Shown here: positions 106 to 11,233 of the stretch, piece by piece
Numbering within the stretch: position 1 is the first letter of the stretch
Layout of the letters: each line of letters starts with the position of its first letter
Program-made: the position numbers and the translations under genes
Source of the DNA: Naegleria gruberi
Lineage: Eukaryota
Length of the DNA stretch: 11,233 nt
Reading direction: 5' to 3' (one strand)
NCBI GenBank assembly: GCA_000004985.1
Contig: GG739005.1
Notes under the pieces: model-generated
What the model was told of the DNA's origin: nothing
The model's input: the letters and a program-made list of their open reading frames with translations, nothing else
Databases searched by the model: none

Positions 106-1290
106 ATGATTTTAGAGTTGAACGAAGAATCTTGGTTAGATCTTTTTATACCAAAAGTGCTATCTATTTCCCTTCGATTAGAACTTTTGGAACCAAAATC
201 GGTTTTGCTCATTCTTAGTTTTAAAGAGAAATATCCAACATGTTCTGCAAAAATTGATCAATTCATTGATTTGTACACAAAATCAGAAATGCGAAATACA
301 GCATTTTCATCTGAAGAATCAAAAATCAATGCACAAGTTATTATCGAGTTGAATTTACCAAGTTTGTGTGGAGTACTTTGTGCAAGACTTGTTCATTCGA
401 AACAAGAAATTAACTTGAATATATTACAAGAAATTGTAACAGTGATGAAACATTTTGGAATTCAAGTATTGGAAGAATGCTTAAATGCCATTGTAGAAGA
501 TATGTTGGTATACCCTTTACGACAAAGGATTGAAGCATATACTCGACTGGCTGGTGGTGAAAGTGATGAGGCTAAACATTTTGCAAGCAAAATACTCTCA
601 AGTATTATTCGAAAATTTGACAACACATCAGAAGATCCATCTGAAGAATGTGCCCAATTACTAACATTTTGTAGAAAGAATGACAAGATTACAGAGGAAA
701 TGAGTATTGCAAAAGTACTAGTTGAAAAGATTACCAAAGCAAAACATGGTCATTCTCTAGTACAAAAATTAATCAAGGAAAATGGAACTGAATGTTTTTG
801 GACTGGATCAGGATTGAGATTAGTTTTGGAACATTGCTACAAACTTTTATACACTGCAGCTTCAAATGTAAATATACCAATTGACTTTGACCTTGGAGTT
901 GACTCTACGAGTGAATGGGTTTTCAAACATGTTAAAATCAAGTGCAAATGTGATCATTGTAAAAGTGTAAAGAAATTCCTTAAATCTAATGACATGGAAT
1001 TTTCTTTCAAGGAGAAGAAGGATGCCAGAACACATGTGGAAACCATTCTAAATGGCATTGACGATATTAAGAGAGAAACAATCAAACATGGCTCACCTCA
1101 AACTCTCAAATTAACCAAGATTCGTACAACTCTCGAAGCCAAGAAGGCAATTGTGACCTCAGCCGAAACTGTTCTCAAACAATACATTGAGTATGCCACC
1201 AAATCAGATCAGAAACCACAAGCAAGACCAGCCTCTGAATCTGTATCATCCTCAACTACTGATCCACCAACCAAGAAAGTCAAACAATAA
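106..1290 (+). CDS. Hypothetical protein, 394 aa, apparently soluble and mostly alpha-helical or charged, with a basic C-terminal tail (PPTKKVKQ). No family recognised.
   Basis: A 1185-nt uninterrupted ORF in AT-rich DNA, where stops are frequent. There is an in-frame TGA at 64-66 upstream, ATG at 106 and TAA at 1288-1290. Codon usage matches the other genes. The antisense 91-aa ORF is rejected. The start context (GGAACTATGA) lacks the A-run seen at the other three starts, so the true N-terminus may lie in an upstream exon. Confidence 0.78.
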   Translation: MILELNEESWLDLFIPKVLSISLRLELLEPKSVLLILSFKEKYPTCSAKIDQFIDLYTKSEMRNTAFSSEESKINAQVIIELNLPSLCGVLCARLVHSKQEINLNILQEIVTVMKHFGIQVLEECLNAIVEDMLVYPLRQRIEAYTRLAGGESDEAKHFASKILSSIIRKFDNTSEDPSEECAQLLTFCRKNDKITEEMSIAKVLVEKITKAKHGHSLVQKLIKENGTECFWTGSGLRLVLEHCYKLLYTAASNVNIPIDFDLGVDSTSEWVFKHVKIKCKCDHCKSVKKFLKSNDMEFSFKEKKDARTHVETILNGIDDIKRETIKHGSPQTLKLTKIRTTLEAKKAIVTSAETVLKQYIEYATKSDQKPQARPASESVSSSTTDPPTKKVKQ

Positions 1291-1426: not shown

Positions 1427-3494
1427 ATGGAGAAAGTGCCACTCCAGCAAATATCAAAAAGAAAAGGTACGACCTTCAGATTCTTCCATGAAGCTAGTTG
1501 CAACTGCAGCAACGAGATAAATCAGCACCGGGCAGTGCTGTCATCATCATTGACAACAAGGAGTGGTTTGATCACACTGATGATTGTTGTTATAATAATG
1601 ATGCTGGTTGTTGTGGAACATTCGGAAGCATCTCCCACAACAATAGCAGTTGCTGGTAGTGTGGGTAATACAGACGAGGCTTGGAATTTTCCACTGTATG
1701 GTACGGGTATATTTGTGGTGCCAAACAGTGATCCTTCATTATTGCCAACTTTTTATGTTTCTGATGGAAATTTGTGTGTTGTGAGACAGATCATTGGAAA
1801 TCAAAGTCGAGTGGTGGCAGGAACAGGTGAATGTTTACCAAACGGTGCTGATTCAGTTCCTGGAACAGAATCTACCTTGTATGGACCTACGAATATGTAT
1901 TATGATGCTACTACAGATTTTCTCTACATTTTGGATTCGTCATCTATTAGATTATTGGACATGAAGAGTGGAATAATTTCTAAAATGCTCATTACATTCA
2001 GTGGAACTAATTTAAACTCATTTTCNNNNNNNNNNNNNNNNNNNNNNNNNNNNNNNNNNNNNNNNNNNNNNNNNNNNNNNNNNNNNNNNNNNNNNNNNNN
2101 NNNNNNNNNNNNNNNNNNNNNNNNNNNNNNNNNNNNNNNNNNNNNNNNNNNNNNNNNNNNNNNNNNNNNNNNNNNNNNNNNNNNNNNNNNNNNNNNNNNN
2201 NNNNNNNNNNNNNNNNNNNNNNNNNNNNNNNNNNNNNNNNNNNNNNNNNNNNNNNNNNNNNNNNNNNNNNNNNNNNNNNNNNNNNNNNNNNNNNNNNNNN
2301 NNNNNNNNNNNNNNNNNNNNNNNNNNNNNNNNNNNNNNNNNNNNNNNNNNNNNNNNNNNNNNNNNNNNNNNNNNNNNNNNNNNNNNNNNNNNNNNNNNNN
2401 NNNNNNNNNNNNNNNNNNNNNNNNNNNNNNNNNNNNNNNNNNNNNNNNNNNNNNNNNNNNNNNNNNNNNNNNNNNNNNNNNNNNNNNNNNNNNNNNNNNN
2501 NNNNNNNNNNNNNNNNNNNNNNNNNNNNNNNNNNNNNNNNNNNNNNNNNNNNNNNNNNNNNNNNNNNNNNNNNNNNNNNNNNNNNNNNNNNNNNNNNNNN
2601 NNNNNNNNNNNNNNNNNNNNNNNNNNNNNNNNNNNNNNNNNNNNNNNNNNNNNNNNNNNNNNNNNNNNNNNNNNNNNNNNNNNNNNNNNNNNNNNNNNNN
2701 NNNNNNNNNNNNNNNNNNNNNNNNNNNNNNNNNNNNNNNNNNNNNNNNNNNNNNNNNNNNNNNNNNNNNNNNNNNNNNNNNNNNNNNNNNNNNNNNNNNN
2801 NNNNNNNNNNNNNNNNNNNNNNNNNNNNNNNNNNNNNNNNNNNNNNNNNNNNNNNNNNNNNNNNNNNNNNNNNNNNNNNNNNNNNNNNNNNNNNNNNNNN
2901 NNNNNNNNNNNNNNNNNNNNNNNNNNNNNNNNNNNNNNNNNNNNNNNNNNNNNNNNNNNNNNNNNNNNNNNNNNNNNNNNNNNNNNNNNNNNNNNNNNNN
3001 NNNNNNNNNNNNNNNNNNNNNNNNNNNNNNNNNNNNNNNNNNNNNNNNNNNNNNNNNNNNNNNNNNNNNNNNNNNNNNNNNNNNNNNNNNNNNNNNNNNN
3101 NNNNNNNNNNNNNNNTGCCAATTAAATGGTCCACAAGGACTGGCAGCACCTCCAACAAGCATGAAAGGTCAATTTTTGTTTGATTTTGCTGACACTAATA
3201 ATAACAGAATTAGAAGAATACAAAATGACTTGACAGTTATACCCCTATTAAGCAATAATCCTAATAATGATGGAATTAACGGACCAAATGGAATAATGTA
3301 CACGCCAAATGGTGATCTTTATATCGCCAGTCAAGGAAACAACAAAATAATGAAATACAGTAATTCACAATTGAGTACTGTTGCTGGAAATGGTTATGCA
3401 GGTTATTCAGGCGATGGAGGACCAGCCAGAAATGCCAAGTTGAACTATCCTGCAGATGTTACAGTTTCCTCCACAGGTGAAGTTTATATTGCAG
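1427..3494 (+). CDS. Exon 1 of a large NHL-repeat / EGF-repeat membrane protein. It holds a signal peptide or anchor followed by NHL beta-propeller blades, and it spans N-run 2026..3115.
   Basis: The ORF is in frame 2 from ATG 1427, in context AAAAAAATGG. The hydrophobic stretch LITLMIVVIIMMLVVV is followed by EHSEA|SP. NHL-type blades are visible, for example FPLYGTGIFVVPNSDPSLLPTFYVSDGNLCVVRQI and LYGPTNMYYDATTDFLYILDSSSIRLLD. After the N-run come LNGPQGLA...FLFDFADTNNNRIRRIQ, INGPNGIMYTPNGDLYIASQGNNKIMKY and LNYPADVTVSSTGEVYIAG. The exon ends at the donor GCAG|GTATGT at 3494/3495. An alternative start, ATG 1580 (MIVVIIMMLVVVEHSEA), gives a textbook cleavable signal peptide. Confidence 0.7.
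1580..1630 (+). other. Candidate cleavable signal peptide, or the hydrophobic core of a signal anchor if translation starts at 1427.
   Basis: MIVVIIMMLVVVEHSEA|SPTT: a hydrophobic core followed by small residues at positions -3 and -1 (S-E-A). Confidence 0.5.
2026..3115. other. Run of 1090 N: undetermined sequence (assembly gap or masked segment) inside the NHL-propeller coding region.
   Basis: A contiguous n-run. NHL blades flank both sides, and the same reading frame (frame 2) is open on both sides. Confidence 0.99.
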
Positions 3495-3542
3495 GTATGT
3501 TTTGAAGAATTTAATGTAATTTTTAAACGATTCATCTACTAG
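3495..3542 (+). other. Spliceosomal intron (48 nt, phase 1) of the NHL/EGF gene.
   Basis: It runs GTATGTTTTGAAGAATTTAATGTAATTTTTAAACGATTCATCTACTAG. Unspliced, the ORF hits TGA at 3503-3505. Spliced, G|AT gives ...EVYIAG-D-WGNRAVRKVFRNG..., which reconstitutes the canonical NHL motif (hydrophobic-A-D-x-x-N-x-R-V) exactly across the junction. It also joins the two large ORFs, which are both in frame 2. Confidence 0.85.
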
Positions 3543-4692
3543 ATTGGGGAAATAGAGCTGTAAGAAAAGTTTTTAGAAATGGAACAATTATTACTCTTAT
3601 TGTTAGTGGTAACGGACTGTCTGAATTGAATGGTGTTACATTGACACCAAATGGAGATTTGTTGTATTCAACACAATTATGGGTCAAGCTGTATATGGAG
3701 GGAGATTCAGGAAGTTGTATTGATAAGAATACATGCAATAATCATGGCAGTTGTGTGAATGGAAAGTGTGTTTGTGATAGTGGATGGAGAGGAAATTTGA
3801 ATTGTGGAACATTTTCATGTGACATTACACCACCACCTCATTCTTCACAATGTATTGGTCCAAATCAATTTTCTTGTCAAGATGGGTGGACAGGATTAAA
3901 TTGCCAGGAACCAGTTTGTTTTGGAACTCCAGCAAGCACCACAACAGTATGCAGTTCACATGGTCAATGCATTTCCAATAATACATGTAATTGTGTGAGT
4001 GGATGGAGAGGCAATTCAGATTGTAGTGCATTTTCATGTGACATTACACCACCACCTCACTCTTCACAATGTATTGGTCCAAATCAATTTTCTTGCCAGG
4101 ATGGATGGACAGGACTAAATTGCCAGGAACCAGTTTGCTTTGGAACTCCAGCAAACACCACAACAGTATGCAGTTCACACGGTAAATGTATTTCCAATAA
4201 TACATGTAATTGTGTGAGTGGATGGAGAGGCAATTCAGATTGCAGTGCATTTTCATGTGATGTAAAATCTGAACATGGAGAGTATTGTATTGGACCTAAT
4301 ACCTACAAATGTCAAGATGGCTGGATTGGTGATTTATGTGACATTCCACTTTGTAATGGAATTCCAGCAAATAATCCAGCAGTTTGCAATTCACACGGAC
4401 AGTGCATTTCCAATAATACATGTAATTGCTTTAGTGGATGGAGAGGAAATAGTATTTGCACTCAATTTACATGTGATGGTGTCAATAATTGTCAACCTCA
4501 TGGTCAATGCATTTCTAATAATACTTGTAAATGTAGTACTGGTTATGGTGGAAATGGATGTAACGATAGAATGTGCTTTGGTAAATGGGGTCAAGCAGGT
4601 TGCAGCAATAATGGATATTGTTCAAATACTGACAAGTGCAGTTGTTTCCCTCTCTATTTTGGACAACAATGTCAGTGGCTTGATTGTAATCC
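3543..4692 (+). CDS. Exon 2 of the NHL/EGF gene. It carries the last NHL blade and then at least nine tenascin-type EGF-like modules, and continues into N-run 2.
   Basis: DWGNRAVRKV...LNGVTLTPNGDLLYSTQ is followed by repeated units such as CIDKNTCNNHGSCVNGKCVCDSGWRGNLNC, VCSSHGQCISNNTCNCVSGWRGNSDC and CQPHGQCISNNTCKCSTGYGGNGC. These follow the C-x(3-5)-G-x-C-x(5)-C-x-C-x(2)-G-W/Y-x-G-x(2)-C pattern. The ORF is uninterrupted up to the first N at 4693. Confidence 0.85.
3812..4468 (+). repeat. In-frame tandem repeat of a 219-bp (73-codon) two-EGF module. Copies 1 (3812..4030) and 2 (4031..4249) are about 95% identical at the DNA level; copy 3 (4250..~4468) is diverged.
   Basis: Direct comparison of TTTTCATGTGACATTACACCACCACCTCA...GATTGTAGTGCA with the following 219 nt shows about 11 mismatches, mostly synonymous. 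Two changes are non-synonymous: S->N and Q->K. The antisense ORFs 3825..4037 and 4044..4256 are mirror artefacts of this duplication. Confidence 0.9.
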
Positions 4693-7600
4693 NNNNNNNN
4701 NNNNNNNNNNNNNNNNNNNNNNNNNNNNNNNNNNNNNNNNNNNNNNNNNNNNNNNNNNNNNNNNNNNNNNNNNNNNNNNNNNNNNNNNNNNNNNNNNNNN
4801 NNNNNNNNNNNNNNNNNNNNNNNNNNNNNNNNNNNNNNNNNNNNNNNNNNNNNNNNNNNNNNNNNNNNNNNNNNNNNNNNNNNNNNNNNNNNNNNNNNNN
4901 NNNNNNNNNNNNNNNNNNNNNNNNNNNNNNNNNNNNNNNNNNNNNNNNNNNNNNNNNNNNNNNNNNNNNNNNNNNNNNNNNNNNNNNNNNNNNNNNNNNN
5001 NNNNNNNNNNNNNNNNNNNNNNNNNNNNNNNNNNNNNNNNNNNNNNNNNNNNNNNNNNNNNNNNNNNNNNNNNNNNNNNNNNNNNNNNNNNNNNNNNNNN
5101 NNNNNNNNNNNNNNNNNNNNNNNNNNNNNNNNNNNNNNNNNNNNNNNNNNNNNNNNNNNNNNNNNNNNNNNNNNNNNNNNNNNNNNNNNNNNNNNNNNNN
5201 NNNNNNNNNNNNNNNNNNNNNNNNNNNNNNNNNNNNNNNNNNNNNNNNNNNNNNNNNNNNNNNNNNNNNNNNNNNNNNNNNNNNNNNNNNNNNNNNNNNN
5301 NNNNNNNNNNNNNNNNNNNNNNNNNNNNNNNNNNNNNNNNNNNNNNNNNNNNNNNNNNNNNNNNNNNNNNNNNNNNNNNNNNNNNNNNNNNNNNNNNNNN
5401 NNNNNNNNNNNNNNNNNNNNNNNNNNNNNNNNNNNNNNNNNNNNNNNNNNNNNNNNNNNNNNNNNNNNNNNNNNNNNNNNNNNNNNNNNNNNNNNNNNNN
5501 NNNNNNNNNNNNNNNNNNNNNNNNNNNNNNNNNNNNNNNNNNNNNNNNNNNNNNNNNNNNNNNNNNNNNNNNNNNNNNNNNNNNNNNNNNNNNNNNNNNN
5601 NNNNNNNNNNNNNNNNNNNNNNNNNNNNNNNNNNNNNNNNNNNNNNNNNNNNNNNNNNNNNNNNNNNNNNNNNNNNNNNNNNNNNNNNNNNNNNNNNNNN
5701 NNNNNNNNNNNNNNNNNNNNNNNNNNNNNNNNNNNNNNNNNNNNNNNNNNNNNNNNNNNNNNNNNNNNNNNNNNNNNNNNNNNNNNNNNNNNNNNNNNNN
5801 NNNNNNNNNNNNNNNNNNNNNNNNNNNNNNNNNNNNNNNNNNNNNNNNNNNNNNNNNNNNNNNNNNNNNNNNNNNNNNNNNNNNNNNNNNNNNNNNNNNN
5901 NNNNNNNNNNNNNNNNNNNNNNNNNNNNNNNNNNNNNNNNNNNNNNNNNNNNNNNNNNNNNNNNNNNNNNNNNNNNNNNNNNNNNNNNNNNNNNNNNNNN
6001 NNNNNNNNNNNNNNNNNNNNNNNNNNNNNNNNNNNNNNNNNNNNNNNNNNNNNNNNNNNNNNNNNNNNNNNNNNNNNNNNNNNNNNNNNNNNNNNNNNNN
6101 NNNNNNNNNNNNNNNNNNNNNNNNNNNNNNNNNNNNNNNNNNNNNNNNNNNNNNNNNNNNNNNNNNNNNNNNNNNNNNNNNNNNNNNNNNNNNNNNNNNN
6201 NNNNNNNNNNNNNNNNNNNNNNNNNNNNNNNNNNNNNNNNNNNNNNNNNNNNNNNNNNNNNNNNNNNNNNNNNNNNNNNNNNNNNNNNNNNNNNNNNNNN
6301 NNNNNNNNNNNNNNNNNNNNNNNNNNNNNNNNNNNNNNNNNNNNNNNNNNNNNNNNNNNNNNNNNNNNNNNNNNNNNNNNNNNNNNNNNNNNNNNNNNNN
6401 NNNNNNNNNNNNNNNNNNNNNNNNNNNNNNNNNNNNNNNNNNNNNNNNNNNNNNNNNNNNNNNNNNNNNNNNNNNNNNNNNNNNNNNNNNNNNNNNNNNN
6501 NNNNNNNNNNNNNNNNNNNNNNNNNNNNNNNNNNNNNNNNNNNNNNNNNNNNNNNNNNNNNNNNNNNNNNNNNNNNNNNNNNNNNNNNNNNNNNNNNNNN
6601 NNNNNNNNNNNNNNNNNNNNNNNNNNNNNNNNNNNNNNNNNNNNNNNNNNNNNNNNNNNNNNNNNNNNNNNNNNNNNNNNNNNNNNNNNNNNNNNNNNNN
6701 NNNNNNNNNNNNNNNNNNNNNNNNNNNNNNNNNNNNNNNNNNNNNNNNNNNNNNNNNNNNNNNNNNNNNNNNNNNNNNNNNNNNNNNNNNNNNNNNNNNN
6801 NNNNNNNNNNNNNNNNNNNNNNNNNNNNNNNNNNNNNNNNNNNNNNNNNNNNNNNNNNNNNNNNNNNNNNNNNNNNNNNNNNNNNNNNNNNNNNNNNNNN
6901 NNNNNNNNNNNNNNNNNNNNNNNNNNNNNNNNNNNNNNNNNNNNNNNNNNNNNNNNNNNNNNNNNNNNNNNNNNNNNNNNNNNNNNNNNNNNNNNNNNNN
7001 NNNNNNNNNNNNNNNNNNNNNNNNNNNNNNNNNNNNNNNNNNNNNNNNNNNNNNNNNNNNNNNNNNNNNNNNNNNNNNNNNNNNNNNNNNNNNNNNNNNN
7101 NNNNNNNNNNNNNNNNNNNNNNNNNNNNNNNNNNNNNNNNNNNNNNNNNNNNNNNNNNNNNNNNNNNNNNNNNNNNNNNNNNNNNNNNNNNNNNNNNNNN
7201 NNNNNNNNNNNNNNNNNNNNNNNNNNNNNNNNNNNNNNNNNNNNNNNNNNNNNNNNNNNNNNNNNNNNNNNNNNNNNNNNNNNNNNNNNNNNNNNNNNNN
7301 NNNNNNNNNNNNNNNNNNNNNNNNNNNNNNNNNNNNNNNNNNNNNNNNNNNNNNNNNNNNNNNNNNNNNNNNNNNNNNNNNNNNNNNNNNNNNNNNNNNN
7401 NNNNNNNNNNNNNNNNNNNNNNNNNNNNNNNNNNNNNNNNNNNNNNNNNNNNNNNNNNNNNNNNNNNNNNNNNNNNNNNNNNNNNNNNNNNNNNNNNNNN
7501 NNNNNNNNNNNNNNNNNNNNNNNNNNNNNNNNNNNNNNNNNNNNNNNNNNNNNNNNNNNNNNNNNNNNNNNNNNNNNNNNNNNNNNNNNNNNNNNNNNNN

Positions 7601-9058
7601 NNNNNNNNNNNNNNNNNNNNNNNNNNNNNNNNNNNNNNNNNNNNNNNNNNNNNNNNNNNNNNNNNNNNNNNNNNNNNNNNNNNNNNNNNNNNNNNNNNNN
7701 NNNNNNNNNNNNNNNNNNNNNNNNNNNNNNNNNNNNNNNNNNNNNNNNNNNNNNNNNNNNNNNNNNNNNNNNNNNNNNNNNNNNNNNNNNNNNNNNNNNN
7801 NNNNNNNNNNNNNNNNNNNNNNNNNNNNNNNNNNNNNNNNNNNNNNNNNNNNNNNNNNNNNNNNNNNNNNNNNNNNNNNNNNNNNNNNNNNNNNNNNNNN
7901 NNNNNNNNNNNNNNNNNNNNNNNNNNNNNNNNNNNNNNNNNNNNNNNNNNNNNNNNNNNNNNNNNNNNNNNNNNNNNNNNNNNNNNNNNNNNNNNNNNNN
8001 NNNNNNNNNNNNNNNNNNNNNNNNNNNNNNNNNNNNNNNNNNNNNNNNNNNNNNNNNNNNNNNNNNNNNNNNNNNNNNNNNNNNNNNNNNNNNNNNNNNN
8101 NNNNNNNNNNNNNNNNNNNNNNNNNNNNNNNNNNNNNNNNNNNNNNNNNNNNNNNNNNNNNNNNNNNNNNNNNNNNNNNNNNNNNNNNNNNNNNNNNNNN
8201 NNNNNNNNNNNNNNNNNNNNNNNNNNNNNNNNNNNNNNNNNNNNNNNNNNNNNNNNNNNNNNNNNNNNNNNNNNNNNNNNNNNNNNNNNNNNNNNNNNNN
8301 NNNNNNNNNNNNNNNNNNNNNNNNNNNNNNNNNNNNNNNNNNNNNNNNNNNNNNNNNNNNNNNNNNNNNNNNNNNNNNNNNNNNNNNNNNNNNNNNNNNN
8401 NNNNNNNNNNNNNNNNNNNNNNNNNNNNNNNNNNNNNNNNNNNNNNNNNNNNNNNNNNNNNNNNNNNNNNNNNNNNNNNNNNNNNNNNNNNNNNNNNNNN
8501 NNNNNNNNNNNNNNNNNNNNNNNNNNNNNNNNNNNNNNNNNNNNNNNNNNNNNNNNNNNNNNNNNNNNNNNNNNNNNNNNNNNNNNNNNNNNNNNNNNNN
8601 NNNNNNNNNNNNNNNNNNNNNNNNNNNNNNNNNNNNNNNNNNNNNNNNNNNNNNNNNNNNNNNNNNNNNNNNNNNNNNNNNNNNNNNNNNNNNNNNNNNN
8701 NNNNNNNNNNNNNNNNNNNNNNNNNNNNNNNNNNNNNNNNNNNNNNNNNNNNNNNNNNNNNNNNNNNNNNNNNNNNNNNNNNNNNNNNNNNNNNNNNNNN
8801 NNNNNNNNNNNNNNNNNNNNNNNNNNNNNNNNNNNNNNNNNNNNNNNNNNNNNNNNNNNNNNNNNNNNNNNNNNNNNNNNNNNNNNNNNNNNNNNNNNNN
8901 NNNNNNNNNNNNNNNNNNNNNNNNNNNNNNNNNNNNNNNNNNNNNNNNNNNNNNNNNNNNNNNNNNNNNNNNNNNNNNNNNNNNNNNNNNNNNNNNNNNN
9001 NNNNNNNNNNNNNNNNNNNNNNNNNNNNNNNNNNNNNNNNNNNNNNNNNNNNNNNNNN
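4693..9058. other. Run of 4366 N: undetermined sequence inside the EGF-array gene. It most likely hides further EGF modules, and possibly introns.
   Basis: A contiguous n-run. EGF modules lie immediately upstream and an S/T/N-rich stalk immediately downstream. The coding frame changes from frame 2 before the run to frame 1 after it. Confidence 0.99.
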
Positions 9059-9543
9059 CGTGCATTATCACACCTCTATCATCATCTAATCAATCAATTA
9101 ATAATAATAATAATAATATTACGGAAAATAATTTAGTGTCATTGTTAGGAAAAACAACAACAACAAAATCATCATCATTAGACAATCAACAAAATTTAGA
9201 ATCATCCACTCGTATTCTTCTGATGACGGAAAGTTCTTCTATCATCATTACTTACAATAATATTAATTACTCCATCACTACCAATTCTTCATCATCAGAC
9301 GCAATTCCATGCTACTACAATGATGCCAATTCCTTCTTCTTTGGCATGACATTCTCCCTCCCGAAAGAACATGCTCAGCTCGAACTCATCCTCGGAGGAG
9401 TAATGATTCCCTTCATCATTCTCGTTGTTGGTTGTTTGTGTTGTTTACCTCTGTCCATGTCATGGATTTGTATGAAGGAGGATATTATGGAGAGGAAGCA
9501 GAAGGTAGATTTTCATAAATTGGACTCTACTTGGGATGAATAA
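9059..9543 (+). CDS. C-terminal coding segment of the NHL/EGF gene (frame 1): a Ser/Thr/Asn-rich stalk, a single transmembrane helix and a ~30-aa cytoplasmic tail, ending at stop TAA 9541-9543.
   Basis: Frame 1 is open from the end of the N-run: CIITPLSSSNQSINNNNNNITENNLVSLLGKTTTTKSSSLDNQQNLESS...SSSSDAIPCYYNDANSFFFGMTFSLPKEHAQLE-LILGGVMIPFIILVVGCLCCL-PLSMSWICMKEDIMERKQKVDFHKLDSTWDE*. The ORF track's GTG start at 9136 is an artefact of its bacterial-style start rules. Frame 2 after the gap gives only 26 low-complexity codons. Continuity with the upstream exons across the N-run cannot be proven. Confidence 0.62.
9099..9118 (+). repeat. Coding (TAA/AAT)n microsatellite encoding poly-Asn in the stalk. 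A nearby (ACA)n at about 9154..9166 encodes TTTT.
   Basis: TAATAATAATAATAATAATA is read directly in the sequence. In frame 1 it encodes NNNNNN. Confidence 0.8.
9382..9444 (+). other. Predicted transmembrane helix of the receptor-like protein, with a juxtamembrane Cys cluster (GCLCCL).
   Basis: LILGGVMIPFIILVVGCLCCL is 21 hydrophobic residues, preceded by a glycosylatable S/T stalk and followed by a charged segment (KEDIMERKQK). Confidence 0.6.
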
Positions 9544-10093: not shown

Positions 10094-10282
10094 ATGGCTA
10101 AATTCACAATCTTCTCTCTCGCCCTTTTATTCATCCTCCTTCAGCTCACCCACAACATCCTCGCCAAACGTCAAGTCCTCTACTGGATGGGTCTCGAACG
10201 CACCCACGAAAATATCACTCACGATTTGAATGATATTTTGGAGAGAGCAAGGGAAGGCGAATTTACACAAATTTCCTATGAA
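10094..10282 (+). CDS. Exon 1 of a secreted GH18-family glycosidase (di-N-acetylchitobiase-like): signal peptide plus the N-terminus of the mature protein.
   Basis: ATG 10094 sits in context AAAAAAAATGG. It encodes MAKFTIFSLALLFILLQLTHNILA|KRQVLYWMGLERTHENITHDLNDILERAREGEFTQISYE. The exon ends at the donor GAA|GTAAGT at 10282/10283. The ORF track's GTG at 10076 is not the biological start. Confidence 0.78.
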
Positions 10283-10343
10283 GTAAGTTGTGTGGAAAAT
10301 TGATGGAGAATTGATGGAATTGATAATGTGGAATGGTGGATAG
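10283..10343 (+). other. Spliceosomal intron (61 nt, phase 0) of the GH18-like gene.
   Basis: It runs GTAAGTTGTGTGG...GGTGGATAG. There is an in-frame stop just after the donor when unspliced, and TAG at 10341-10343 just before exon 2. Splicing gives ...QISYE|AYNLGEFSSF..., joining the two ORFs at 10076 and 10353 in one frame. Confidence 0.8.
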
Positions 10344-10985
10344 GCTTATAATTTGGGAGAATTTTCATCGTTTGTGGATAATCACTTTAGTAATGTGTTG
10401 CCATTACTAAAAAAGGCTAATTTGCAAACTTTTCCAATGATAACTACTGTTAATATTCCGTATTTGCAAGAATTGTTGAATAATGAGACGACTATGGATA
10501 GATTTATTATTCAAGCTGTCGAAAATCAAAAGAATATAGACACAACTGGATATAATATTGATTTTGAACCTATTCGAAATGATATTACAACTCAACTAGC
10601 TCCAAATTTTGTAAAATTCTTGAATAGATTTGCGGATTCTCTTCATCTTGTTGGAAAGAAACTTACTGTTTGCATTGCTTCTTGGAGTTTCTTCTGGGAT
10701 TGGAATTTATTATCAGAAAGTCGAGTTGACAAGATTATTACCATGGACACCTATGCTGCTCGTGCAGAACAATTCGATTCTGCATTTAAAAAGGCAGTTA
10801 CAACAATTCCTATTAGAAAGTTAGGTTTAGGGTTAATGATTGATTCGAGAGTAAACCAAACTGAACTAGGAAGAAGAATTTCAATGATTGAAAATTCTGG
10901 AATTGATGAAATTGATGTTTGGCAATATCAAGACGTGCCTGAGTTTTGGTTTAATGAATTGGAAAAATTCGTCAAGAATAATTGA
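10344..10985 (+). CDS. Exon 2 of the GH18-like glycosidase: the catalytic TIM-barrel core carrying TGYNIDFE, ending at stop TGA 10983-10985.
   Basis: The motif T-G-Y-N-I-D-F-E at 10545..10568 corresponds to the GH18 D-x-x-D-x-D-x-E signature. As I remember it, human CTBS has the DGINIDIE form. Further co-linear similarity to chitobiase includes LTVCIASWS (compare VTFDVAWSP), DKIITMDTY (compare DFLFVMSYD), IRKLGLGLMIDS (compare KKLVMGVPWYG) and the C-terminal SGIDEIDVWQY...EFWFNEL (compare RGIGMWNANCLDY...EEMWEVL). Confidence 0.82.
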   Translation, partial: AYNLGEFSSFVDNHFSNVLPLLKKANLQTFPMITTVNIPYLQELLNNETTMDRFIIQAVENQKNIDTTGYNIDFEPIRNDITTQLAPNFVKFLNRFADSLHLVGKKLTVCIASWSFFWDWNLLSESRVDKIITMDTYAARAEQFDSAFKKAVTTIPIRKLGLGLMIDSRVNQTELGRRISMIENSGIDEIDVWQYQDVPEFWFNELEKFVKNN

Positions 10986-11068: not shown

Positions 11069-11233
11069 ATGGATCCAACACGTTTCTCTTTGAGTTTGAT
11101 TGTTGTGTTGATTCTTTTCAACACCTTTCATTTATCAAACTGTCAAACATCAACACTTTCGAATAATTCTAAACAAGAGTCTTGCTGCTTGCCTCCAAAT
11201 TTCAATTACAAATACAGCTACATGCAAACAGTT
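11069..11233 (+). CDS. The 5' end of a gene for a secreted Cys-containing protein. It is incomplete and runs off the window end.
   Basis: ATG 11069 sits in context TATAAAAAATGG. It encodes MDPTRFSLSLIVVLILFNTFHLSNC|QTSTLSNNSKQESCCLPPNFNYKYSYMQTV..., an N-terminal hydrophobic signal peptide, and stays open to the last base. It is absent from the ORF track only because it has no stop inside the window. Confidence 0.5.
   Translation, partial: MDPTRFSLSLIVVLILFNTFHLSNCQTSTLSNNSKQESCCLPPNFNYKYSYMQTV

What the first reader, a model, noticed from the sequence alone, without database searches (positions are those of the whole stretch)
10094..10985. Compact secreted GH18 chitobiase-like enzyme with altered catalytic motif, next to the EGF receptor gene
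The two-exon gene encodes a signal peptide and a ~255-aa GH18-type core. Its catalytic signature is TGYNIDFE. The canonical form is DGxDxDxE, and the mammalian di-N-acetylchitobiase form is DGINIDIE. It retains the acid Glu and the preceding Asp. The first Asp is replaced by Thr. The long insertion between the KKLVMG-like strand and the C-terminal GIG...W motif is absent. It is either a minimal active chitobiase or chitinase, or a lectin-like or inactive derivative. It lies 550 bp downstream of a heavily N-glycosylatable surface receptor.
Basis: partly seen in the sequence, partly recalled or inferred. Interest (0 to 1): 0.5.

Follow-up and report, generated by a model that had tools for sequence, protein, structure and literature searches.

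The report
Compact secreted GH18 glycosidase of Naegleria
This is a real two-exon Naegleria gruberi gene for a small secreted enzyme of the chitinase-type (GH18) fold that very probably still cuts GlcNAc-containing sugar chains; it belongs to an unstudied branch shared by amoeba-like protists and a few acid-loving archaea, and its natural substrate is still unknown.

Summary
Exons 10094-10282 and 10344-10985, joined across a 61-nt GT-AG intron, give the 276-aa protein NAEGRDRAFT_76497, annotated only as "predicted protein". It has a signal-peptide-like N-terminus and the motif TGYNIDFE.

The protein alone hits no Pfam model. The GH18 assignment rests on other evidence:
- A family profile hits GH18 crystal structures at 1e-10.
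- 58 of 120 relatives hit PF00704.

The "altered" motif is normal for this family and for its nearest solved relatives (5jh8, 4q6t, YdhD). The Asp-x-Glu pair, M197, Y200 and W256 are 97-99% conserved. An active hydrolase is therefore much more likely than a lectin.

It is not a close chitobiase (CTBS) relative. The upstream gene is a teneurin-like NHL/EGF-repeat membrane protein, and that adjacency is absent in other Naegleria.

The family consists of protists plus one archaeal clade. In one Thermoplasmata subgroup the homologue sits in a peptidoglycan-catabolism cluster (MurQ, NagA, NlpC/P60). That makes bacterial cell-wall glycan my leading substrate guess, at about 0.35. Chitin oligomers are the main rival.

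Verdict: a divergent member of a known enzyme family, of modest interest.

The parts
10094..10282 (+). Exon 1 (codons 1-63): start codon, signal-peptide-like N-terminus, barrel strand 1 (WMGLER) and strand 2 up to E63
   Evidence: The product is identical to XP_002668589.1.
10094..10165 (+). Predicted signal peptide (residues 1-24, MAKFTIFSLALLFILLQLTHNILA, cleavage before KR)
   Evidence: Hydropathy. A low-confidence N-terminal helix lies outside the barrel in the model. Many family members have similar N-termini. No dedicated predictor was run.
10283..10343 (+). Intron, 61 nt, GTAAGT...ATAG
   Evidence: Of three frame-preserving GT-AG combinations, this one has the consensus GTAAGT donor and gives the deposited 276-aa protein. 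The junction is supported by intronless orthologues.
10344..10985 (+). Exon 2 (codons 64-276 plus TGA): barrel strands 3-8
10184..10201 (+). WMGLER (residues 31-36), family signature at the C-terminal end of strand 1. W31 and E35 are conserved in 89% of members.
10545..10568 (+). Strand-4 catalytic motif TGYNIDFE (residues 131-138): N134, D136 and the proposed acid/base E138
   Evidence: translation. D136 99%, E138 99%, N134 86%, followed by P139 98%. Aligned with HGVEVDLE, SGINVDFE, AGINLDFE and GGVTIDFE of GH18 structures.
10743..10754 (+). MDTY (residues 197-200) after strand 6; counterpart of the GH18 M-x-Y-D element with a one-residue shift
   Evidence: M197 99%, T199 95%, Y200 99%. Strand 6 is at 193-196. 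Equivalence to the classical Tyr is inferred from sequence only.
10920..10922 (+). W256 at the end of strand 8 (counterpart of the GH18 'GxxxW' tryptophan under the -1 sugar)
   Evidence: (97% conserved).
1427..9543 (+). Upstream neighbour (not part of the enzyme): NHL repeats, teneurin-type EGF repeats, C-terminal transmembrane helix. Interrupted by two N gaps.

Best explanation
The gene encodes a secreted or lysosome-directed, catalytically competent glycoside hydrolase of family 18. It is reduced to the bare (beta/alpha)8 barrel.

Mechanism (inferred from the family's established chemistry):
- Cleavage is retaining and substrate-assisted, at a beta-1,4 bond on the reducing side of a GlcNAc.
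- E138 is the acid/base.
- D136, held by N134, polarises the C2 acetamido group.
- Y200 and W256 shape the -1 subsite.

The protein belongs to an uncharacterised GH18 branch found in phagotrophic protists and in one clade of acidophilic archaea.

Proposed role in Naegleria (inferred): digestion of GlcNAc-containing wall polymers of ingested prey. My leading substrate is the glycan strand of bacterial peptidoglycan, cut as an endo-N-acetylglucosaminidase in the manner of the GH18 spore enzyme SleL.

Confidence by step: gene, fold and family membership are shown (about 0.9). Catalytic competence is inferred from conservation (about 0.8). Peptidoglycan as the substrate is a guess from distant archaeal gene context and from the lifestyle of the hosts (about 0.35).
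For: Gene model.

Fold:
- AF2 model with pLDDT 91.5 and pTM 0.86, eight alternating strands and helices.
- The Foldseek top 50 hits are all GH18, best 2.7e-13.

Sequence:
- The family profile hits GH18 structures: 7z65 1.1e-10, 5jh8 1.3e-10, 4q6t 1.1e-9, YdhD 7e-9, SleL/YaaH about 2e-8.
- 58 of 120 members hit PF00704.

Activity:
- Conservation is D136 and E138 99%, P139 98%, M197 and Y200 99%, W256 97%, W177 96%.
- SleL/YaaH is a documented GH18 glucosaminidase acting on peptidoglycan fragments (PMC10653849).

Substrate lead:
- In Thermoplasmata loci L008, L009, L010 and L017 the membrane-anchored homologue lies beside an SH3+NlpC/P60 peptidase.
- In L009, L010 and L017 it also lies within a few kb of MurQ (304 bits, cutoff 168).
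- NagA is nearby in the same three loci; in L009 it scores 232.7 bits (cutoff 225.65).
- L010 and L017 also carry a GlcD/GlcF-like 2-hydroxyacid dehydrogenase.
- L017 has a PBP4B/AmpH-like protein and an Opp-type ABC ATPase.
- L009 also has a GH3 hexosaminidase-like gene, a NagK-like kinase, an Opp-type binding protein and LysA.
- L009 and L010 share these genes at only 52-65% identity and in a different order.
- No other glycan-strand hydrolase is annotated in L017 within +/-10 kb.

Hosts: the named eukaryotes are Naegleria, Willaertia, Anaeramoeba, Pelomyxa, Capsaspora, Ergobibamus and Dysnectes. As far as I know these are phagotrophs.
Against: The window protein alone gives no Pfam or NCBIfam hit. 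Two of the four canonical acidic residues are missing.

I could not inspect model coordinates. The roles assigned to N134, Y200 and W256 therefore rest on sequence position only, and MDTY is shifted by one residue relative to the classical MxYD.

The peptidoglycan context is confined to one Thermoplasmata subclade whose proteins are only 32-35% identical to the Naegleria protein. Other archaeal contexts differ:
- Marsarchaeota-type loci sit by GT4, GT2, PIG-L and SIMPL genes.
- Thermoprotei loci sit by a beta-aspartyl-peptidase-like gene plus a GNAT.
- Sysuiplasma loci sit by housekeeping genes.

The GH3, NagK-like, NagA and Opp-type genes of L009 would equally suit chitobiose use. Most characterised GH18 enzymes are chitinases, and the best sequence match, 7z65, is deposited as a chitinase. 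No expression or localisation data were found.
Confidence: 0.5

Rival explanations
1. It is a small secreted chitinase or chitodextrinase. It hydrolyses chitin or chitooligosaccharides from fungal or arthropod debris, prey, or the amoeba's own cyst wall. It uses the same substrate-assisted mechanism.
Against: No chitin-binding module and no insertion domain. The MurQ, NlpC/P60 and PBP4B-like neighbours in Thermoplasmata are specific to muramic-acid and stem-peptide catabolism, not chitin. I found no text in the library establishing chitin in Naegleria cyst walls.
Confidence: 0.28
2. It acts on the chitobiose core of N-glycans. It would be either a lysosomal reducing-end chitobiase or an endo-beta-N-acetylglucosaminidase like Endo H, and would serve glycoprotein turnover.
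Confidence: 0.12
3. It is a non-catalytic GH18-fold protein (lectin, inhibitor or storage-type, like narbonin, XIP-I or chitinase-like lectins) that binds glycans rather than cleaving them.
Against: The Asp-x-Glu pair and the strand-6 and strand-8 residues are kept in 97-99% of 150 members across protists and archaea. That pattern is expected for catalysis. From my own knowledge, known GH18 lectins usually lose the Glu. Enzymatically active relatives share the same motif variant (SleL).
Confidence: 0.06

Closest known systems
Bacterial YaaH/SleL/YdhD-type GH18 enzymes and their structural-genomics relatives (PDB 4s3j/4s3k, 3cz8, 4q6t, 5jh8)
   Different: Only 14-18% identity in the structural alignments. 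The bacterial proteins are 300-430 aa, and from my own knowledge often carry LysM domains and extra loops. The Naegleria protein is a bare 250-aa barrel with its own signatures (WMGLER, DFEP, TMDTY). The family was seen only in eukaryotes and archaea in my searches.
PDB 7z64/7z65, 'Chitinase, GH18 family' from a haloalkaliphilic bacterium (278-283 aa)
   Different: 15% identity. It has His and Glu rather than Thr and Asn at motif positions 1 and 4. The strand-6 Tyr does not align. I could not find its paper in the library.
Lysosomal di-N-acetylchitobiase (CTBS), GH18
   Same: GH18 enzyme with Asn at motif position 4 (DGINIDIE versus TGYNIDFE). Signal peptide. The strand-5 'VDxAxW' resembles it (CTBS sequence from memory).
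   Different: Weak profile match: 64% probability over 78 columns. CTBS keeps the first Asp, has MSYD on strand 6, and has a roughly 90-residue insertion between strands 7 and 8 that is absent here.
Endo-beta-N-acetylglucosaminidases of GH18 (Endo H, Endo F1, BT1285) and hevamine-type plant enzymes
   Same: Single-domain barrels of 260-290 aa without the insertion domain.

Membership tests
Glycoside hydrolase family 18 (GH18) | (beta/alpha)8 barrel superimposable on solved GH18 catalytic domains | tested here: met
Glycoside hydrolase family 18 (GH18) | Significant match of the protein itself to the GH18 profile (Pfam PF00704) | tested here: not met
   No Pfam family at E<=10 and no NCBIfam family for the 276-aa protein.
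Glycoside hydrolase family 18 (GH18) | Sequence homology to GH18 at family (profile) level | tested here: met
   The profile of 120 members hits 26 distinct PDB sequences at E<=1e-3, all GH18, best 1.1e-10. 58 of 120 members hit PF00704, best 9.9e-9. The single sequence hits 7z65 at 7e-4.
Glycoside hydrolase family 18 (GH18) | Strand-4 motif DxxDxDxE with catalytic Glu and the adjacent Asp | tested here: inconclusive
   TGYNIDFE: the last Asp and the Glu are present and 99% conserved. The first two Asp are Thr and Asn. The same reduced motif occurs in the solved GH18 proteins 5jh8, 4q6t and 3cz8.
Glycoside hydrolase family 18 (GH18) | Strand-6 Met/Tyr (MxYD) and strand-8 Trp lining the -1 subsite | tested here: inconclusive
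   M197, Y200 and W256 are 97-99% conserved and lie at the C-terminal ends of strands 6 and 8. The spacing is M-D-T-Y, and the Asp after the Tyr is Ala. Model coordinates could not be inspected.
Glycoside hydrolase family 18 (GH18) | Retaining hydrolysis of beta-GlcNAc linkages | not testable with these tools
   Needs an enzyme assay.
Di-N-acetylchitobiase (CTBS) orthologues | Close full-length sequence relationship to CTBS, including the strand 7-8 insertion | tested here: not met
The insertion is absent.
SleL/YaaH-type peptidoglycan N-acetylglucosaminidases | Nearest structural and sequence neighbours within GH18 | tested here: met
SleL/YaaH-type peptidoglycan N-acetylglucosaminidases | Peptidoglycan-binding LysM domains | tested here: not met
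   No domain besides the barrel. No LysM hit in Pfam for the window protein, and none among the Pfam families matched by the 16 and 120 family members scanned.
SleL/YaaH-type peptidoglycan N-acetylglucosaminidases | Activity on, or genetic association with, peptidoglycan metabolism | tested here: inconclusive
   Association with MurQ, NagA, NlpC/P60 and PBP4B-like genes is seen only in one Thermoplasmata subclade. It is absent in other archaeal loci. It cannot be tested from eukaryotic gene order.

The most novel reading that the evidence does not exclude
This compact GH18 branch is a previously unrecognised class of peptidoglycan glycan-strand hydrolases. Bacterivorous protists would use it to digest prey walls. 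After a single inter-domain transfer, wall-less acidophilic Thermoplasmata would use a membrane-anchored version as the extracellular entry enzyme of a complete murein-scavenging pathway (NlpC/P60 peptidases, Opp-type uptake, MurQ, NagA, D-lactate oxidation).
Probability: 0.3. Interest if true: 0.6.

Novelty: new member of a known kind. Interest (0 to 1): 0.35.

Why it matters
For the Naegleria gene itself the gain is modest. A 'predicted protein' can be annotated as a secreted, probably active, minimal GH18 hydrolase, and the motif that looked aberrant turns out to be a recurrent, functional variant.

The wider point is that a coherent GH18 branch escapes the Pfam model in about half of its members. 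It has at least 396 clusters at 50% identity and is seen in many protist lineages and one archaeal clade. No member that I could find has been characterised.

If its substrate is peptidoglycan, it would add a digestive lysin type to amoebae, which are relevant as grazers and as hosts of pathogens. It would also provide genetic evidence that wall-less archaea feed on bacterial cell walls.

At about 250 residues it would also be a convenient minimal scaffold for studying which GH18 residues are truly required for substrate-assisted catalysis.

Tried and rejected
- Single-sequence Pfam and NCBIfam scans gave nothing.
- Literature searches for the PDB codes 7Z64/7Z65, for the title of that entry, and for the gene, protein and UniProt identifiers gave nothing. 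Searches on Naegleria GH18/chitinase and on Naegleria cyst-wall chitin gave nothing usable.
- The AlphaFold-database fold library was not available.
- The locus of the 99%-identical second copy could not be fetched.
- A functional link with the upstream NHL/EGF gene is rejected. There are no tblastn matches of any other window gene near the orthologues in L012 and L013.
- The apparent GH18-NlpC/P60 fusion protein P0163 is rejected as evidence. Its C-terminal half is identical to the C-terminus of the NlpC/P60 gene that lies on the opposite strand next to the homologue in L008. I read it as an assembly or gene-call chimera.
- The Asparaginase_2 neighbour in Thermoprotei was considered as a glycosylasparaginase, which would have favoured N-glycan catabolism. 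This is rejected because it is nearer to isoaspartyl peptidase/L-asparaginase.
- A metagenome scan aimed at more peptidoglycan-cluster contexts found 16 loci. None carried MurQ, NagA or NlpC/P60 within 10 kb.
- The paper on archaeal peptidoglycan hydrolases (PMC12352652) does not mention GH18 or MurQ.

Full report
**1. What is in the sequence.**

The window is a whole 11,233-bp scaffold of Naegleria gruberi with two runs of N, at 2026-3115 and 4693-9058.

From the ATG at 10094, three GT-AG combinations keep the frame. The one with the consensus donor is 10283-10343, GTAAGT...GGATAG, 61 nt. It yields a 276-aa protein ending at the TGA at 10983-10985.

This protein is identical over its full length to the deposited model NAEGRDRAFT_76497 (EFC35845.1, XP_002668589.1, UniProt D2W509), named only 'predicted protein'. 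The junction ...ISYE|AYNLG... is contiguous in orthologues. The N. lovaniensis and a related metagenomic Naegleria gene are called as uninterrupted ORFs.

Other features of the protein:
- The N-terminus has a Lys, a 15-residue hydrophobic core and NILA|KR. Nothing later reaches transmembrane hydrophobicity. No dedicated signal-peptide predictor was available.
- Three N-x-S/T sequons lie at N40, N110 and N234.
- TGYNIDFE is at residues 131-138, nt 10545-10568.

**2. Is it GH18?**

The single sequence matches no Pfam model even at E<=10, and no NCBIfam model.

Three independent lines overrule it.

(a) Sequence against solved structures.
- phmmer against PDB sequences finds 7z65, deposited as 'Chitinase, GH18 family', at E 7e-4. 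TGYNIDFE aligns with HGVEVDLE.
- A profile of 120 relatives hits 26 distinct PDB sequences at E<=1e-3, all GH18. The best are 7z65 at 1.1e-10, 5jh8 at 1.3e-10, 4q6t at 1.1e-9, YdhD at 7e-9 and SleL/YaaH at about 2e-8.

(b) Pfam at family level. 58 of those 120 relatives match PF00704 on their own, best 9.9e-9.

(c) Predicted structure.
- An AlphaFold2 model built on 16 homologues has mean pLDDT 91.5 and pTM 0.86. It shows eight strand-helix units.
- The 50 best Foldseek hits in the PDB are all GH18, best 2.7e-13.

Between strand 7 (223-228) and strand 8 (252-256) there is a single helix.

**3. The 'altered' motif is the family norm and is compatible with activity.**

An exhaustive HMMER search found 396 clusters at 50% identity with E<=1e-3, and 166 with E<=1e-10.

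Motif statistics in the 140 members where the motif was recognised:
- Position 1 is T (72), S (21), D (14) or A (12).
- Position 4 is N (120) or D (13).

Conservation across 150 full-length members:
- Catalytic motif: D136 99%, E138 99%, P139 98%, G132 97%.
- Strands 5, 6 and 8: M197 99%, Y200 99%, W256 97%, W177 96%.
- Other polar and aromatic positions: E63 92%, R241 91%, E35 89%, W31 89%.

All of these lie at or just after the C-terminal ends of barrel strands, where GH18 active sites are formed.

The nearest solved relatives carry similar reduced motifs:
- SGINVDFE in 5jh8.
- AGINLDFE in 4q6t.
- GGVTIDFE in YdhD.

SleL/YaaH is a documented glucosaminidase acting on peptidoglycan fragments (PMC10653849 citing Lambert & Popham 2008). 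From my own knowledge, CTBS (DGINIDIE) is also active.

The conservation pattern fits a working enzyme, not a lectin-like derivative. One detail remains unresolved. The strand-6 element reads M-D-T-Y-A rather than M-x-Y-D. I could not inspect coordinates to see whether Y200 sits where the classical Tyr does.

**4. It is not specifically a chitobiase, and the neighbour is not relevant.**

A profile comparison with human CTBS gives 64% probability over 78 columns, covering strands 4-6 only. It is no better than a generic GH18 relationship.

The upstream gene (1427-9543, interrupted by both gaps) has NHL repeats, teneurin-type EGF repeats (PF25024 at 3.8e-29), a transmembrane helix and a short tail. 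It is an EGF-repeat surface protein, not an EGF receptor in the usual sense.

In N. lovaniensis (L012) and a second Naegleria-like contig (L013), the orthologue lies between a 6-phosphofructo-2-kinase gene and a Ras/Roc gene. No other gene of the window has a tblastn match within 10 kb. The adjacency therefore carries no functional signal.

**5. Who has this family.**

Named eukaryotic sources:
- Naegleria and Willaertia.
- Anaeramoeba.
- Pelomyxa.
- Capsaspora.
- Ergobibamus and Dysnectes.
- MMETSP and EukProt transcriptomes.

Long metagenomic contigs carrying members without a C-terminal anchor have eukaryotic gene content.

Prokaryotic hits in 185,579 species genomes were all archaeal: Thermoplasmata (including Ca. 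Sysuiplasma), Thermoprotei and Marsarchaeota. That scan used only two conserved peptide patterns.

The archaeal proteins carry C-terminal membrane anchors, and some also carry long extra regions. In a rough neighbour-joining tree all archaeal sequences form one clade set among the eukaryotic diversity. This is only a distance tree with midpoint rooting, so I take it as a hint of one inter-domain transfer, with the direction open.

**6. Clues to the substrate.**

Eukaryotic gene order is uninformative, so I looked at archaeal contexts.

In one Thermoplasmata subclade (L008, L009, L010, L017) the homologue is paired with an SH3_16 + NlpC/P60 peptidase. Neighbours found in that subclade:

| Neighbour | Evidence | Where seen |
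|---|---|---|
| MurNAc-6-phosphate etherase MurQ | 304 bits, cutoff 168 (scored in L010) | L009, L010, L017 |
| NagA | 232.7 bits, cutoff 225.65 (scored in L009) | L009, L010, L017 |
| GlcD/GlcF-like FAD/Fe-S 2-hydroxyacid dehydrogenase | could oxidise the D-lactate released by MurQ (my inference) | L010, L017 |
| PBP4B/AmpH-like serine peptidase | NCBIfam hits | L017 |
| Opp-type ABC ATPase | Pfam annotation | L017 |
| Second anchored protein with a Cys-His pattern and a weak match to an NlpC/P60 structure | PDB phmmer E 0.11 | L008, L009, L010, L017 |
| GH3 hexosaminidase-like | below cutoff | L009 |
| NagK-like kinase | weak | L009 |
| Opp-type binding protein | Pfam and NCBIfam hits | L009 |
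| LysA | 354.7 bits, cutoff 297.9 | L009 |

L009 and L010 share these genes at only 52-65% identity and in a different order. The association is therefore not just recent common descent.

No other glycan-strand hydrolase is annotated in L017. That makes the anchored GH18 the natural candidate for extracellular cleavage of murein glycan.

Against generalising:
- Marsarchaeota-type loci place the gene next to GT4, GT2, PIG-L and SIMPL genes.
- Thermoprotei place it after a beta-aspartyl-peptidase-like gene and a GNAT. That gene is nearer to isoaspartyl peptidase than to glycosylasparaginase.
- Sysuiplasma loci are housekeeping.
- 16 further metagenomic loci showed no murein genes.
- The cluster-associated proteins are only 32-35% identical to the Naegleria protein.

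**7. Verdict on mechanism.**

Shown: a real, conserved, spliced gene; a GH18 barrel; a retained Asp-x-Glu pair and other conserved strand-end residues.

Inferred from established GH18 chemistry: retaining, substrate-assisted cleavage after a GlcNAc, with E138 as acid/base and D136 (braced by N134) activating the acetamido group.

Proposed: a secreted or phagolysosomal digestive enzyme. My substrate ranking is:
- Peptidoglycan glycan strands, about 0.35.
- Chitin or chitooligosaccharides, about 0.28.
- The N-glycan chitobiose core, about 0.12.
- Non-catalytic, about 0.06.
- The remainder is unknown.

**8. Novelty and score.**

UniProt already labels the N. lovaniensis and Capsaspora relatives 'GH18 domain-containing protein', and the Anaeramoeba protein is named 'chitinase domain-containing'. 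Family membership is therefore not new in kind.

What is new is modest. It consists of a firm assignment for this gene, the demonstration that the motif variant is functional-looking and typical, and the delineation of an uncharacterised protist-plus-archaea branch with a peptidoglycan-linked context in some archaea.

I rate it a new member of a known kind, with interest 0.35.

Noticed in passing
whole window; protein P0215: N. gruberi has a second copy, NAEGRDRAFT_73909 (XP_002671110.1, D2VXX3), on a 259-kb scaffold. It is 273/276 identical to the window protein. The small gapped scaffold is therefore probably an alternate haplotype or a very recent duplicate. Its locus could not be fetched.
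   Followed up: partly
window 1427-9543 (+), gaps 2026-3115 and 4693-9058: Large receptor-like gene: N-terminal hydrophobic segment, NHL repeats, teneurin-type EGF repeats (PF25024 3.8e-29, PF23106 1e-27), a Ser/Thr/Asn-rich stretch, a transmembrane helix and a short tail. Most of it is hidden in assembly gaps.
   Followed up: partly
window 106-1290 (+): A 394-aa ORF with only a sub-threshold match to THO complex subunit 1 (PF11957, E 0.0074, 15.5 bits against a cutoff of 27).
   Followed up: no
window 11069-11233 (+): Start of another gene with a signal-peptide-like N-terminus (MDPTRFSLSLIVVLILFNTFHLSNC...), cut off by the scaffold end. It lies only 83 bp after the GH18 stop codon.
   Followed up: no
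L009 1-11110; L010 7908-15630; L017 10001-20954; L008 137-5421: Wall-less Thermoplasmata MAGs carry what looks like a complete bacterial-peptidoglycan catabolic cluster. It includes MurQ, NagA, cytosolic SH3+NlpC/P60, a GlcD/GlcF-like dehydrogenase, a PBP4B/AmpH-like peptidase and Opp-type transport genes, plus GH3 and LysA in L009. It also includes two membrane-anchored extracellular proteins: the GH18 homologue and a Cys-His protein with a PKD-like region. From my own knowledge, the MurQ-PBP4B adjacency recalls the E. coli murQP-yfeW operon. The 2025 paper on archaeal peptidoglycan hydrolases does not mention GH18 or MurQ.
   Followed up: partly
P0163 / L011 989-1615: A 208-aa 'GH18 + NlpC/P60' protein is probably an assembly or gene-call chimera. 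Its C-terminal half equals the C-terminus of the opposite-strand NlpC/P60 neighbour in L008.
   Followed up: yes
alignments A1 and A2; rough tree: All archaeal members carry a C-terminal membrane anchor and form one clade within eukaryotic diversity. Many eukaryotic members have WMCLERC (two Cys) where Naegleria has WMGLERT. Multidomain versions exist: RCC1 repeats + GH18 in P0045, and a long Ala/Pro-rich N-terminal region in P0102.
   Followed up: partly
L024 8896-15663; L027 and L003: In Marsarchaeota-type loci the homologue (about 550 aa, with repeats and an anchor) is preceded by a SIMPL/DUF541 protein and followed by GT4, PIG-L-like de-N-acetylase, GT2 and methyltransferase genes. This suggests a link to the organism's own surface glycans there.
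   Followed up: no
L002 8486-11257; L004; L029; L030: In Thermoprotei a same-strand trio (beta-aspartyl-peptidase-like, GNAT, GH18 homologue) is kept between contigs whose proteins are only 67-69% identical. The functional meaning is unknown.
   Followed up: partly
L012 10001-10894; L013 10001-10870: The N. lovaniensis and related orthologues are intronless and have longer, Thr/Ser-rich N-terminal regions. The 61-nt intron therefore seems specific to the N. gruberi lineage.
   Followed up: no
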